Shown here one piece after another: positions 9,163-12,940 of a stretch of DNA of 64,000 bases; positions within the stretch are counted from its first letter, which is position 1; each line of letters begins with the position of its first letter. The stretch lies in IMG/VR virus record IMGVR_UViG_3300050120_000213, positions 1-64,000 of that record; one strand, 5' to 3'. The notes beneath the pieces are model-generated. The model saw nothing but the letters and a program-made list of their open reading frames with translations, searched no databases and was not told the DNA's origin. Source of the DNA: a virus. A program made the translations under genes and the position numbers.

Positions 9163-9353
9163 GATATAAAATCCAGTAGCGCCAGCGTGACTTCCTTGAC
9201 CTCGGTGCCATGCTGCACAAACAAGGTGGCGGGGTTGCCGTCGCGGGAATCGAGTTCTTTGCACTGGGCCGTGTACGTGACGACGCCCAGGTAGGTGTGC
9301 TCTAGCTGAGCGCCAGCTTCGAGGAAGGCTTTGTGAATCGGAGTGGTTCTCAT
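9159..9353 (-). CDS. Small hypothetical protein
   Basis: 4-bp overlaps at both ends. Confidence 0.55.
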   Translation of the reverse strand: MRTTPIHKAFLEAGAQLEHTYLGVVTYTAQCKELDSRDGNPATLFVQHGTEVKEVTLALLDFIS

Positions 9354-9652
9354 AGGTGGGTATGAAGTCCGGTAACTTTTTCAAAAATGGATTGCAATTG
9401 ATTGCAACCGACTGCGTGCTTACTATTGATCAGTTTGATCGACGTACCGTATATCGAATAAAACGCCATGGTGTACAAGTCATCCCCGGTCAATAAAATT
9501 TGTACTCGACGGATGTTTTTACTACGCGGAATAAAAAATTGCAGGCCATTTTTTAATGCAATAAATTTACTGGCACCGGTCATGACCGCAAAACGATTAC
9601 CACCTAACTGACGTAGGATGGTGGCCCCTACTTCTTTATCAATTATTTCCAT
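9350..9652 (-). CDS. Hypothetical phage protein
   Basis: TILRQLGGNRFAVMTGA...TGLHTHL; ATG 9652 behind ATGGAG RBS. Confidence 0.75.
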   Translation of the reverse strand: MEIIDKEVGATILRQLGGNRFAVMTGASKFIALKNGLQFFIPRSKNIRRVQILLTGDDLYTMAFYSIYGTSIKLINSKHAVGCNQLQSIFEKVTGLHTHL

Positions 9653-9685
9653 GATTTCGGACTCCATTCCGTTGATTTAGATTTA

Positions 9686-9713
9686 AGTATAGCACTGTTT
9701 GCTGGATTGTCAA
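9686..9713 (-). promoter_or_regulatory. sigma70-type promoter TTGACA-N16-TATACT
   Basis: Consensus hexamers, TG extension; lies just after the array terminator. Confidence 0.85.
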
Positions 9714-9716
9714 AGG

Positions 9717-9750
9717 AAAAATGCAGCTAACCCCGAAAGATTAACTGCAT
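9717..9750 (-). terminator. Intrinsic terminator closing the GGY-NN array
   Basis: ATGCAGTTAATCT-TTCG-GGGTTAGCTGCAT-TTTT: 13-bp stem whose G-U pairs work only on the minus strand, UUCG loop. Confidence 0.8.
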
Positions 9751-9759
9751 CCCGTTCCC

Positions 9760-10112
9760 GTACCTCACCCTACCCGACCAAACCTCACCGCACCTGGCCT
9801 AACCCTACCGCACCTGCCTTACCGCACCCAACCTTACCGTGCCCAACCGTACCTTGCCCTGCCTGCCCAACCCTACCACACCTCACCCTACCGAACCCCA
9901 CCAAACCGCACCTGCCTAACCCTACCTTACCTAACCACACCAAACCGGACCATACCTGCCGTACCTGACCGGACCACACCTTACCTAACCATACCGGACC
10001 CTACCACACCTGCCATACCTAACCTCACCTCACCACACCGTACCAAGCCGCACCATACCTGCCATACCAGACCTCACCGCACCTCACCTCACCGGACCAC
10101 ACCTTACCTGCC
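9760..10112 (-). ncRNA. Array B of GGY-NN pentamers, 7 GGCA-delimited units (candidate guide RNAs, VIPR-like)
   Basis: Plus-strand tgcc at 9815, 9864, 9913, 9957, 10011, 10060, 10109 (spacings 49, 49, 44, 54, 49, 49 = 4+5n); strict GGY-NN register between them. Confidence 0.85.
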
Positions 10113-10763
10113 TCAATCTACCGCCACTTCTATTGCCTCGCTGATCAACCCTAACTTAATATTGATTAAGTCCAATAAATCTTGCAAAGGGATGTCCGTC
10201 AGCGGGAAAAACTTATTGCTGTTAATTGCGCTGGTGATGTTGCCGCGTGCTGATAGCAAACAGTGACGTAGATTTGAAAGGGACTGATACTCGCTCTTAG
10301 CGATTTCTTCCGATTCTTTCACCCCCATAGCTAGCCCAGTTTTACTAAAGGCGGGCATAAGCGCCGCTATTTCATCTTTAGAACCCAGCGGGGTTGATTT
10401 TACTGGGAAGCTCAAGGTGGTGATTTTAGACTCGTGTTTAATCACCGTTAGGTAAAGCACCTTAACTTCTTTATACAGCAAACTAACCTGCATAAGCAGG
10501 TACTTTTCTTGAGCGTAGTCCTTATTCCACGCCTCTTTAAACAAGTTGTGGAGGATGTCACTCGGGTTTCTAGCGGCGTCAATTAGCGCCTTTTTGTTTA
10601 GCAGTTTCGTCTGGGGGTCCACAAAGCCCATGAAATACAGGATCTGGGCTTTTGACATCTTTTTGCTCTTACTACGGTAGAGCTTTTCCAGTGCCATATA
10701 TTCCTCAGACAGATGCCCTGCTTCTGAGGATGAGTGGTCTATGGTCGTTCCTTCTTGCAACAT
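10113..10763 (-). CDS. Partner protein of the RAMP-like/array module (function unknown)
   Basis: ATG 10763 behind AGGAG; stop codon abuts the first GGCA of array B; LIDAARNPSDILHNLF...W...AQEKY motif. Confidence 0.75.
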   Translation of the reverse strand: MLQEGTTIDHSSSEAGHLSEEYMALEKLYRSKSKKMSKAQILYFMGFVDPQTKLLNKKALIDAARNPSDILHNLFKEAWNKDYAQEKYLLMQVSLLYKEVKVLYLTVIKHESKITTLSFPVKSTPLGSKDEIAALMPAFSKTGLAMGVKESEEIAKSEYQSLSNLRHCLLSARGNITSAINSNKFFPLTDIPLQDLLDLINIKLGLISEAIEVAVD

Positions 10764-10824
10764 AGTAAGTCTCCTAAACAAAACACCGGGGGTGGGTGCC
10801 CCCGGAGAGCGCCACGGCCAATTC

Positions 10825-11628
10825 TTACCCAGCCTTCATTGCCTTCAGACCCACGGGTTCCAAAGTCTGCCCGCGCTTCTTGATTTCTTCCTCAAACCAC
10901 TTGTTGATGTCCGCCGTGTCCCTGTCGAAATACGTGGGGTTATCAAAAGCGAGTTCTTGTGCGTGTCGCCCTTGCTTTTCGATTATTTCCAACACCCGTG
11001 GGTCATCGGGCTGTGCCACCAAAAACTTGCCGTAAGGGCCGCCTTTCTGGGGACGCCAATCACCAATCCCTACGATCCGCCCCGCCGCGTGGGCTAAGTT
11101 GGCAATCGAAGTATCATTGAGGGGGTTGGCCTTGTATGTAATGCGGACTCGTGGGATCACCCACTGGCGGAAAATGGGCCGAGTGCGGGGATCGGGCACG
11201 CTAGTCATGCCTGAATTCTTTGCCATCGTAGTATACAGTTCCGGCACGCCAAACAGGTTCAACTGCATGTCTTCATCCTGACTGGTTACGCTAATCCAGC
11301 GTTGGGCTTCGGACTTCCTGATCCCCGGCAAATCCAGCGCCACCGAGGACAAAGCCCCTTGAATCATTGCCACCGGCACATGAAACAACGTGGGTTCATC
11401 ATCGTTGCTGTTCATGTAAAAGCACTCTTGGTACTCCTTAAGCGGATAGTGCTTAATGTTCTCCGCTTTCGCCTGCTTGTTCATCGGTGCTTTGGGCAGC
11501 ATCAATTCCTGAAATGCCTTGCGTGCATAACGGTGCATGATGAAGGGGGATTGCCCAATCAAAGCCAAGTCGATACTCTCGACTTTAACTTCTTCAATAC
11601 TGATCTCTGCATTTTTAACGACCATCAT
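10825..11628 (-). CDS. RAMP/Cas7-like RNA-binding protein (Vipr-like)
   Basis: N-terminal strand LIGQSPFIMH, VPVAMIQGAL (like RAMP IP-x-S-x2-KG-x-L), RTRPIF-x2-W, C-terminal Gly-rich loop AGRIVGIGDWRPQKGGPYGKF; arrays on both sides. Confidence 0.75.
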   Translation of the reverse strand: MMVVKNAEISIEEVKVESIDLALIGQSPFIMHRYARKAFQELMLPKAPMNKQAKAENIKHYPLKEYQECFYMNSNDDEPTLFHVPVAMIQGALSSVALDLPGIRKSEAQRWISVTSQDEDMQLNLFGVPELYTTMAKNSGMTSVPDPRTRPIFRQWVIPRVRITYKANPLNDTSIANLAHAAGRIVGIGDWRPQKGGPYGKFLVAQPDDPRVLEIIEKQGRHAQELAFDNPTYFDRDTADINKWFEEEIKKRGQTLEPVGLKAMKAG

Positions 11629-11668
11629 ATCACTCCATTGTTGATAACTGTAGCACCGATTGGTACTA

Positions 11669-11692
11669 GGAAGCCCACGTTAATAGGCTTCC
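11669..11692 (-). other. Hairpin at the 3' end of array A
   Basis: GGAAGCC-N10-GGCTTCC, no U tract; possible processing or stability element. Confidence 0.55.
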
Positions 11693-11698
11693 CACTAC

Positions 11699-11864
11699 TA
11701 ACCTTACCTGCCAAACCCGACCTTACCAAACCTAACCGTACCTTACCAAACCGCACCTGCCTTACCGCACCTTACCTAACCAAACCTCACCTGACCTCAC
11801 CGCACCATACCTCACCTGCCTAACCATACCCCACCCAGCCATACCTCACCTGACCATGCCTGCC
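11699..11864 (-). ncRNA. Array A of GGY-NN pentamers, 3 complete units plus a 2-pentamer stub
   Basis: Plus-strand tgcc at 11709, 11758, 11817, 11861 (spacings 49, 59, 44); 8, 11 and 9 NN dinucleotides in transcript order. Confidence 0.85.
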
Positions 11865-11892
11865 ACACAAAAATTGCAATCAATTGCAACGC

Positions 11893-12360
11893 TTACGCGC
11901 CCATGTCGTCACGACGGTTCTTGTACTCAGCAGCCAACTTGGCTTCGGCCAGTTCGCCTTGCCACACCATCGCGTTCATTTGCTGCTCATCCGACTCGGT
12001 AAAGTCATCCGGGGTCGTGGGTTGCTTCGGTTCTGCTGGCTCAATCGGACGGATTTCGCGGCCATTCTGTGCGGCAATTTCCGCTAGCTGAGCCCAGTAC
12101 TTCGGCATTTTTTTCCTGGCAATCACCATCTGTTTCGGTGTCAGCGAGCCGTACTTGAGGATGCCCTTGGCAAACGAGGTGAGTATTTCTGCGTCTGTGC
12201 TATTAAACCCAACTCCATTTGCATCATGGGTGGCCTCTGACGATTGCTCTGCTGCTGTCTGCCGTTCGTAGATCCGCAGCACCCCGCGAACTACGGCACG
12301 ATCATTTGTTTGCAAAAGGGCCTGAATCGACTCTTTAACTACTTGTTGGGCTTTGTTCAT
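11893..12360 (-). CDS. Hypothetical phage protein
   Basis: IYERQT...NGVGF...DAEILTSFA...KYWAQL motifs; ATGGAG RBS. Confidence 0.75.
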   Translation of the reverse strand: MNKAQQVVKESIQALLQTNDRAVVRGVLRIYERQTAAEQSSEATHDANGVGFNSTDAEILTSFAKGILKYGSLTPKQMVIARKKMPKYWAQLAEIAAQNGREIRPIEPAEPKQPTTPDDFTESDEQQMNAMVWQGELAEAKLAAEYKNRRDDMGA

Positions 12361-12393
12361 TTTGCGGACTCCATTCCGGTTGGTAATGAATGT

Positions 12394-12421
12394 AGTATAG
12401 CAGCGTGACGCAGTTTGTCAA
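12394..12421 (-). promoter_or_regulatory. sigma70-type promoter TTGACA-N16-TATACT, nearest upstream promoter of the array/RAMP unit
   Basis: Consensus hexamers, TG extension. Confidence 0.85.
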
Positions 12422-12427
12422 ATAAAA

Positions 12428-12940
12428 TCAGCCCTGTACGGCTTTTAGTTGCTCGGCCAGCGAGACGACTTCGGCGTGTACATACTGTTGATCGCGGTAG
12501 ACCCCTGTATCACCAAAAGACAGGTAGCTCGGGTTGTGGCACAACCCGGGCATAAAGTCGCCGTAGTGGGCGCAGTCGAAACCAAAGTACCAAAGAATAT
12601 TCTTATTTTTCTTGGTCAGCCATCCCGAGTACGTCAGGCCACCATGGACTTGGATCAGCGTGTCAATCGATTCTTCACCGTCTTTGCCGTCCGCCATCGC
12701 AATCTTAAACAACGACAGTATGCTGGTTTTATCCAGATCGATAGCTCGATCTTTCCAGTTACCCACGATGGTGGATGTGGGCACTGTCTCACCATAATCC
12801 TTTTTAAACCACGGATGGTCTTTCTGCACACCCACATAACCGCACCATGTGCCGGTTTCCATGTTACGTCGCATCACACACCCCATACGGCCCATGAGCC
12901 AGATCTGCACGTCGGGTTCGTTTTCCCAAGTCTTAATCAT
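12428..12940 (-). CDS. Hypothetical phage protein
   Basis: WCGYVGV, VHGGLTY, FGFDCAH motifs. Confidence 0.75.
   Translation of the reverse strand: MIKTWENEPDVQIWLMGRMGCVMRRNMETGTWCGYVGVQKDHPWFKKDYGETVPTSTIVGNWKDRAIDLDKTSILSLFKIAMADGKDGEESIDTLIQVHGGLTYSGWLTKKNKNILWYFGFDCAHYGDFMPGLCHNPSYLSFGDTGVYRDQQYVHAEVVSLAEQLKAVQG

What the first reader, a model, noticed from the sequence alone, without database searches (positions are those of the whole stretch)
11669..11888. Array A in the leader of the RAMP-like gene, bracketed by the 14-bp motif and a hairpin
Seen: units AT CA GA AT TG GG AT TA; GA AT GC GA CA GA TT TA AA GC AA; GC TT AA AC TA TT AA CG TT; then a stub (AA, TA) and the hairpin GGAAGCC-N10-GGCTTCC about 40 nt before the start codon. 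A copy of the dispersed motif (11875) lies 10 bp upstream. Inference: guides are co-transcribed with the effector mRNA, so binding or processing could autoregulate it. The stub may be needed to define the 3' end of the last guide.
Basis: partly seen in the sequence, partly recalled or inferred. Interest (0 to 1): 0.7.

Follow-up and report, generated by a model that had tools for sequence, protein, structure and literature searches.

The report
VIPR guide-RNA array upstream of vipr
The repeat tract is a real set of three guide RNAs of a phage VIPR system, a CRISPR-like RNA-guided DNA silencer first described in 2026, so it is a new example of a known kind rather than a new kind of system.

Summary
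On the minus strand, 11864-11699 reads GGCA+8, GGCA+11, GGCA+9 GGY-NN pentamers, then GGCA plus a 2-pentamer stub. A stable hairpin follows (z -5.3), 40 nt before the ATG. The palindromic motif ends 9 nt upstream.

The 267-aa gene is a Vipr protein. A profile of its homologues hits SUSP1 Vipr at E 1e-9, with the GGY-binding R and GDWRP residues conserved. The fold matches Cas7/Csm3 at Z 9.1. With a vap-position gene and a second array (10112-9760), this is a VIPR locus as described in bioRxiv 10.64898/2026.04.26.720920. It has tail-less arrays that probably match that paper's "staggered" arrays.

In 160 related loci, the 4-nt GGCA is the family-wide punctuation (438 of 507 phase breaks). Arrays start with it, and 68% of upstream arrays end in GGCA plus a stub.

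Co-transcription with vipr fits the promoter and terminator layout. Autoregulation is untested, no self-target exists, and no natural target was found.

This scan has already noted VIPR loci on other DNA: 315 notes in at least 250 genomes.

Verdict: new member of a known kind, modest interest.

The parts
12394..12421 (-). Consensus sigma-70 promoter (TTGACA-16-TATACT with TG). Likely start of the transcription unit orf155 - array A - vipr.
   Evidence: It is one of about 22 near-identical promoters in the 99.5-kb genome.
11893..12360 (-). orf155 (phrog_21015, function unknown). First gene of the unit; not conserved next to vipr in relatives.
   Evidence: No tblastn hit in 160 related loci.
11874..11889 (.). 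Copy of the dispersed palindrome TTGCAATCAATTGCAA, 4 nt after the orf155 stop and 9 nt before array A.
   Evidence: 40 exact 14-mer copies in the genome. As RNA it is a weak hairpin, z -0.6.
11821..11864 (-). Guide unit A1: GGCA plus 8 GGY-NN pentamers.
11762..11820 (-). Guide unit A2: GGCA plus 11 pentamers.
11713..11761 (-). Guide unit A3: GGCA plus 9 pentamers.
11699..11712 (-). Terminal punctuation: GGCA plus 2-pentamer stub (GGTAA GGTTA). The second pentamer already forms part of the hairpin's 5' arm.
   Evidence: Family comparison.
11658..11703 (-). Stable hairpin with core GGAAGCC/GGCTTCC and no U tract. Lies between the array and the vipr ribosome-binding site.
   Evidence: I3; -25.7 kcal/mol, z -5.3.
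11633..11636 (-). Ribosome-binding site GGAG, 4 nt before the first ATG (11628) and 7 nt before the second (11625).
   Evidence: The same context CAATGGAGTGA occurs in L081.
10825..11628 (-). vipr: stand-alone Cas7-like RAMP, 267 aa, core residues 12-209 plus a C-terminal helical extension.
10786..10805 (-). GC-rich hairpin followed by a U-rich run, between vipr and the next gene. Possible attenuator.
10113..10781 (-). vap-position gene (222 aa from TTG, or 216 aa from the ATG at 10763). Fold unknown.
9760..10112 (-). Array B: seven GGCA-punctuated guide units of 9, 9, 10, 8, 9, 9 and 11 pentamers. It starts at the stop codon of the vap-position gene.
9714..9752 (-). Intrinsic terminator (15-bp stem, UUUC loop, U5) that ends the unit.
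   Evidence: z -3.5

Best explanation
Array A is the upstream guide array of a phage VIPR system.

Shown by sequence and homology:
- The 267-aa gene encodes a Vipr protein, a stand-alone Cas7-like RAMP that keeps the residues holding GGY in the SUSP1 structure.
- The three units (8, 11 and 9 GGY-NN pentamers) have the make-up of vrRNAs.
- The 4-nt word GGCA, one base short of a pentamer, is the punctuation between guides. It is conserved across this whole Vipr clade.

Inferred from the published SUSP1 work:
- One Vipr protomer binds per repeat and hides GGY.
- The NN pairs are presented to read double-stranded DNA with one skipped base per pair (24-33 bp targets), silencing transcription of a rival element.

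Inferred from the layout here:
- The array is transcribed from the promoter at 12421 on one RNA with orf155 and vipr.
- The -1 phase slip at each GGCA ends one Vipr filament and starts the next. The RNA is then cut or trimmed there into separate guides.
- The final GGCA plus stub gives the last guide (A3) the same 3' boundary as the inner guides.
- The hairpin then caps either the 3' end of that guide or the new 5' end of the vipr message.
For: Vipr identity:
- phmmer to PDB 36pp_D (SUSP1 Vipr) gives E 0.006; the 27-sequence profile gives E 1.1e-9. These align R150 with R138 and G189-D-W-R-P193 with D177/W178/R179.
- BLASTP to the VpaE1 Vipr gives E 4e-8.
- The AlphaFold model has pLDDT 86.6.
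- Every top structural hit is a Cas7-type RAMP: Foldseek E 1.7e-5 and below; VIA Z 9.1, rmsd 3.3 A over 155 residues to Csm3.

Array:
- 95 of 95 pentamers in arrays A and B are GGY. NN carries 3.73 of 4 bits.
- The arrays occur only on the vipr strand.
- The array RNA is unstructured, z -0.2.

Family (160 loci):
- Phase breaks are 4-mers. GGCA accounts for 305 of 348 in close relatives and 133 of 159 in distant ones. 3-mers and 6-mers are nearly absent.
- GGCA-to-GGCA spacing peaks at 49-54 nt, the same as here.
- Arrays begin at GGCA, and upstream arrays mostly end with GGCA plus a stub.
- 36 of 141 dereplicated loci have an upstream array.
- The type II phage VpaE1 also carries vrRNAs upstream of vipr.

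Operon.

Mechanism: from bioRxiv 10.64898/2026.04.26.720920 and .720927.
Against: - There are no RNA data for this phage. Transcription, cutting at GGCA and Vipr loading are all inferred.
- No natural target was found. Exact 1-nt-skip patterns of A2 (full and core), B3 and B7 gave nothing in IMG/VR, and A2 gave nothing in the GTDB genomes. The two A3 hits are at chance level, with the skipped base off the wobble position.
- The closest relative with upstream sequence (L081) lacks both stub and hairpin.
- The palindrome followed by T5, just before the array, could act as a weak terminator or a regulator site and so separate array A from orf155.
- The paper's "staggered" arrays were not confirmed by RNA sequencing. 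Their figure is not held, so the match to this architecture is my reading of a legend.
Confidence: 0.8

Rival explanations
1. Array A is mainly a cis-regulatory leader. Vipr binds its own message's GGY-NN tract as a decoy or titration site and so sets vipr expression. The real guides would come from array B.
For: - The array sits in the leader, between the promoter-proximal orf155 and the vipr ribosome-binding site.
- A terminator-like hairpin after vipr would make orf155 - array A - vipr a unit of its own.
Against: - Units of array A have the same lengths, punctuation and NN diversity as those of array B and as guides in 160 related loci.
- In SUSP1 an upstream vrRNA is a working guide.
- The ribosome-binding site is about 70 nt from the last repeat and is not paired.
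- A decoy role and a guide role are not exclusive.
Confidence: 0.1
2. Array A is transcribed on its own, from a non-consensus promoter helped by a protein bound to the palindromic 16-mer 9 nt upstream. It is not co-transcribed from the orf155 promoter.
For: - 7 or 8 of 44 motif copies lie 7-20 nt upstream of the -35 of the phage's consensus promoters, as an activator or operator site would.
- Here the motif lies at the same distance from the array start.
- In type II loci each vrRNA has its own flanking elements.
Against: - No -35 or -10 match follows the motif here.
- Most motif copies have no promoter next to them, and some lie inside coding sequence (7537, 9393).
- Even then the RNA would run on into vipr, because the hairpin lacks a U tract.
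Confidence: 0.15
3. The tract works as DNA rather than RNA, for example as iterons of a replication origin or as a G-rich strand that forms G-quadruplexes. The link to the RAMP gene would be coincidence.
For: The run of GG every 5 nt on one strand could in principle form two-tetrad quadruplexes.
Against: The same GGY-NN arrays with GGCA punctuation accompany Vipr homologues, always on the gene's strand, in nearly all of 160 loci from unrelated phages down to 24% protein identity. vrRNAs of this make-up co-purify with Vipr in the published system.
Confidence: 0.02

Closest known systems
VIPR type II system of Escherichia phage SUSP1 and its clade, e.g. vB_EcoM-VpaE1 (bioRxiv 10.64898/2026.04.26.720920, .720927, 2026.10.15.759431)
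   Same: - Stand-alone Vipr RAMP with the same G-loop (GDWRP) and thumb arginine.
- A vap-position gene directly downstream.
- GGY-NN pentamer guides on the gene's strand, both upstream and downstream of vipr-vap.
- A phage genome.
   Different: - Type II guides each carry a conserved 3' tail of about 40 nt (hairpin plus pseudoknot) and about 35 nt of spacer sequence. This is seen in VpaE1.
- Here the guides abut, separated only by GGCA, and have no tail.
- Vipr here is 267 aa with a conserved C-terminal extension of about 58 aa, against 195-202 aa in type II.
- The proteins share only about 31% identity over 55 residues.
- The vap-position gene has no detectable similarity to anything named.
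"Staggered" vrRNA arrays of VIPR systems (same preprint, fig. S18 legend)
   Same: [quoted passage not shown] This fits a 4-nt GGCA word within a 5-nt repeat.
   Different: - Only the legend could be read, so the identity of the two architectures is inferred.
- The preprint says this architecture was not among those confirmed by small-RNA sequencing.
- The GGCA consensus, the unit-length distribution and the terminal stub are worked out here.
Cas7 backbone of class 1 CRISPR effectors (Csm3/Cmr4, type VII Cas7, Cas7-11)
   Same: Same fold: RRM core, thumb hairpin and G-loop, at Z 8-9. In both, the protein polymerises along a guide RNA with a fixed step.
   Different: - No CRISPR repeat-spacer array, no other cas genes and no Cas6.
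- The step is 5 nt with 3 hidden bases, against 6 nt with 1 flipped base.
- The specificity is written inside the repeat itself.

Membership tests
VIPR system | Vipr protein: a stand-alone RAMP (RRM core, thumb, glycine-rich loop) homologous to characterised Vipr | tested here: met
   Profile against PDB hits SUSP1 Vipr 36pp_D at E 1.1e-9. BLASTP to VpaE1 Vipr gives E 4e-8. Fold matches are all Cas7-type RAMPs, best Z 9.1, rmsd 3.3 A over 155 residues.
VIPR system | Residues that hold GGY in the SUSP1 structure (H17, R138, D177, W178, R179) | tested here: met
   R150, D190, W191 and R192 align with R138, D177, W178 and R179, and are invariant or nearly so in 27 homologues. H32 aligns with H17 only in a sub-threshold segment.
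VIPR system | vrRNA genes: tandem GGY-NN (YNNGG) pentamers with constant GGY and hypervariable NN, about 9-16 per guide, on the vipr strand | tested here: met
   95 of 95 pentamers are GGY. NN carries 3.73 of 4 bits. Units have 8-11 pentamers, and all lie on the vipr strand.
VIPR system | Minimal locus of vipr plus vap flanked by non-coding arrays, outside any CRISPR-cas locus, typically in a virus | tested here: met
   The order is array A - vipr - 222-aa gene - array B. No CRISPR-like repeat appears among the tandem repeats of the window. The record is a 99.5-kb virus genome.
VIPR system | vrRNAs are expressed, processed and bound by Vipr | not testable with these tools
   Needs small-RNA sequencing and a pull-down.
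VIPR system | Guides match natural targets by the 1-nt-skip rule | tested here: inconclusive
   No self-target was found and none in 160 related loci. Exact patterns of A2, the A2 core, B3 and B7 gave nothing; A3 gave two chance-level hits. Only exact matches could be searched in the large collections, whereas the preprint accepts 80% or more.
VIPR type II (SUSP1 clade) | Each vrRNA ends in a conserved structured 3' tail of about 40 nt | tested here: not met
   Units abut with only GGCA between them. In VpaE1 the tails are plain to see. The single hairpin after array A is not repeated after each guide.
VIPR with staggered arrays | Tail-less array; the end of one vrRNA is the start of the next, with a 1-nt offset | tested here: met
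   A 4-nt junction sits in a 5-nt repeat. Spacing between junctions equals 4 mod 5 in 66% of 961 intervals family-wide and in all intervals here. The comparison rests on a figure legend only.
CRISPR-Cas class 1 | CRISPR repeat-spacer array with several cas genes | tested here: not met
   There are no direct repeats of CRISPR type. The neighbours have no Cas families in Pfam or PHROGs.

The most novel reading that the evidence does not exclude
In this tail-less VIPR class, guide boundaries need neither tail, ribozyme nor Cas6. A one-base-short repeat (GGCA) breaks the register of the Vipr filament, so the protein itself measures out each guide. Because array A lies in the vipr leader, cutting at its last GGCA and stub also creates the hairpin-capped 5' end of the vipr message. 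Vipr supply would then feed back on vipr expression.
Probability: 0.2. Interest if true: 0.55.

Novelty: new member of a known kind. Interest (0 to 1): 0.3.

Why it matters
VIPR was described only in 2026, and only type II has been worked out at the bench.

This locus is a clean, AT-balanced example of the tail-less architecture, with ten sharply delimited guides. That makes it a convenient model for asking how guides are cut out when there is no tail, ribozyme or Cas6.

The family-wide rules found here give testable handles for that question:
- GGCA as the punctuation word.
- 9-10 pentamers as the commonest guide length.
- Arrays that open with GGCA, and upstream arrays that mostly close with GGCA plus a stub.
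- A constrained first repeat after the junction (GGC-R-N).

The rules could also help annotate such arrays. This finding does not change the picture of what VIPR is.

Tried and rejected
- My first idea was a TRAP-like ring protein wrapping triplet repeats. I dropped it once the VIPR preprints were read and the protein matched Vipr.
- Target search gave nothing beyond shuffled-guide controls in the phage's own genome or in 160 related loci.
- Exact 1-nt-skip patterns in IMG/VR: A2 none, A2 core none, B7 none, B3 none. A2 in the GTDB genomes: none.
- A3 gave two hits, L161 in a portal gene and L162. About one or two hits are expected by chance, both are in AT-rich unrelated phages, and the skipped base falls on codon position 1 or 2 rather than 3. 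I rejected them.
- Rfam found no family in 9300-12600, hammerhead ribozymes included.
- The host could not be identified. There is no tRNA in the window and no DNA match to cultured phages apart from pentamer-repeat matches to the Felixounavirus vrRNA arrays.
- The vap-position gene stayed unexplained. Pfam gave nothing significant. The word-based search found only the protein itself. Exhaustive HMMER found one relative at E 2e-9. The ESM Atlas gave nothing at 0.9 or above, and its own model is poor. I therefore did not fold it.
- My first count of pentamers after the last GGCA was unreliable, because many relatives have degenerate repeats. I replaced it with in-phase GG counts measured against inner junctions.
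- The plus-strand ORF at 11302-11823 is set aside. It is antisense to vipr, and its tail is just the array read as low-complexity peptide.

Full report
**1. The observation**

- GGCA plus 8 pentamers, GGCA plus 11, GGCA plus 9, then GGCA plus two pentamers (the stub).
- GTAGT follows, then the inverted repeat GGAAGCC-N10-GGCTTCC (11692-11669).
- Forty nucleotides further on lies the ATG at 11628.
- The palindrome TTGCAATTGATTGCAA ends 9 nt before the first GGCA.

Every pentamer is GGY-NN. The NN positions use 11 different dinucleotides in array A and all 16 in arrays A and B together.

A search for four phased GGT words finds 71 matches against 0.35 expected. All lie in this tract or in a second tract at 10112-9760 on the same strand.

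The array itself has no significant structure, z -0.2.

**2. What it is**

A note on the same window used the word "VIPR-like", which led me to three 2026 preprints. They describe Viral Interference Programmable Repeat systems:
- a small stand-alone RAMP protein (Vipr), usually with an accessory gene (vap);
- guide RNAs (vrRNAs) made of 9-16 GGY-NN pentamers;
- one Vipr protomer binds each repeat and hides GGY;
- the NN pairs read double-stranded DNA with one skipped base per pair, which silences transcription of rival phages or satellites.

I tested each defining feature.
- The 267-aa protein has no Pfam family. Its best PDB sequence match is the SUSP1 Vipr protein, at E 0.006 alone and E 1.1e-9 with a profile of 27 homologues.
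- That alignment places R150 on the thumb arginine R138 and G-D-W-R-P 189-193 on the G-loop D177/W178/R179. These residues are invariant or nearly so in the family.
- BLASTP against the Vipr of phage VpaE1 gives E 4e-8.
- The AlphaFold model (pLDDT 86.6) matches only Cas7-type RAMPs at the top of both structure searches. The best is Z 9.1, rmsd 3.3 A over 155 residues, to Csm3.
- The record is a complete 99.5-kb virus genome. No CRISPR-type repeat is present.

The locus is therefore a VIPR system: array A, vipr, a 222-aa vap-position gene, array B.

**3. How this array differs from the characterised type**

In the type II phage VpaE1, each guide carries a conserved tail of about 40 nt and its own flanking sequence. 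That phage has three guides upstream of vipr and two downstream. An array in front of vipr is thus a known arrangement.

Here the guides have no tails and are separated only by GGCA, a repeat one base short. This most likely corresponds to the "staggered arrays with overlapping vrRNAs" that the preprint mentions. The preprint did not confirm those by RNA sequencing.

I fetched 160 loci encoding relatives at 24-53% identity. Nearly all carry GGY-NN arrays on the gene's strand. Within those arrays:
- Phase breaks are almost always 4-mers, and 438 of 507 are GGCA.
- GGCA-to-GGCA spacing peaks at 49-54 nt, that is 9-10 pentamers.
- The repeat after GGCA is constrained to GGC (91%) followed by a purine (81%). 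In this window, every unit opens with a purine at that position, including the stub.
- Arrays usually begin with GGCA.

**4. The stub and the hairpin**

- Upstream arrays occur in 36 of 141 dereplicated loci.
- 17 of 25 upstream arrays end with GGCA followed by at most a short stub. The figure is 35 of 85 for downstream arrays (Fisher p 0.02) and 13% for inner junctions.
- In at least eight loci the last GGCA lies only 29-54 nt from the start codon, which leaves no room for a further guide.

It is not universal: L081, the closest relative with upstream sequence, has neither stub nor hairpin.

A hairpin between the array and vipr is frequent among relatives but is not conserved in sequence. Here it lacks a U tract, so transcription should run on into vipr.

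**5. Transcription**

The phage has about 22 near-identical consensus promoters, almost all on the minus strand.
- One lies at 12421-12394, before orf155.
- The next lies at 9713-9686, just after the intrinsic terminator that closes array B.
- None lies between them.

Co-transcription of array A with vipr is the simplest reading, but it is an inference. A GC-rich hairpin with a U-rich run between vipr and the next gene (10805-10786) could attenuate transcription before the vap-position gene and array B.

The dispersed palindrome has 40 exact 14-mer copies in the genome, in both orientations and sometimes inside genes. Seven or eight copies lie 7-20 nt upstream of a consensus -35. It is probably a protein-binding site. 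Here it has no promoter next to it.

**6. Function and targets**

Autoregulation is untested.
- No guide matches the phage's own genome by the 1-nt-skip rule better than shuffled guides do.
- No guide matches the 160 related loci.
- Exact-pattern scans of IMG/VR and the GTDB genomes gave no credible target.

The targets remain unknown. Only exact matches could be searched in the large collections.

**7. Verdict**

This is a genuine VIPR guide array, a new member of a kind published in 2026. This scan has already noted that kind on other DNA (315 notes in at least 250 genomes). Its modest added value lies in the punctuation rules for tail-less arrays and in the comparative support for the terminal stub.

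Noticed in passing
whole genome, e.g. window 2112, 13760, 23568, 39885: The 14-mer TGCAATCAATTGCA occurs 40 times exactly in the 99.5-kb genome against 0 for the reversed control. Copies lie in both orientations, about every 2.5 kb, and some are inside coding sequence (7537, 9393). Seven or eight copies sit 7-20 nt upstream of the -35 of consensus promoters. It is likely the site of a dimeric phage DNA-binding protein.
   Followed up: partly
window 1189-42482 and genome 75166-98339, minus strand: About 22 almost identical promoters (TTGACAAA, then N, then TGCTATACT), nearly all on the minus strand. This is a very stereotyped promoter set for an uncultured phage.
   Followed up: partly
window 10786-10805 (-): Terminator-like hairpin (7 G-C pairs followed by UGUUUUGUUU) between vipr and the vap-position gene. 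It could make expression of the vap-position gene and array B depend on read-through.
   Followed up: partly
window 10825-11000 (-), residues 210-267 of Vipr: This Vipr clade has a conserved helical C-terminal extension (Q224, A227, P231, D235, W244, F245, E248, R252 nearly invariant). It is absent from the 195-202-aa type II Vipr and from the 192-aa homologue P0027. Its function is unknown.
   Followed up: no
L001-L160, junction contexts: The first repeat after each GGCA is constrained: GGC in 91%, and then a purine in 81% with C in only 4%. The punctuation word is therefore effectively GGCAGGCR.
   Followed up: yes
L163 (KM657822.1 57780-59770): Phage vB_EcoM-VpaE1 has three tailed vrRNAs upstream and two downstream of its vipr-vap pair. 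All lie in stretches with no annotated feature.
   Followed up: partly
window 10763-10781 (-): The start of the vap-position gene is ambiguous: TTG at 10781 gives 222 aa, ATG at 10763 gives 216 aa. The protein collection holds the 216-aa form. Only residues about 57-110 are weakly similar to the genes that follow vipr in L011, L040, L050, L074 and L075.
   Followed up: partly
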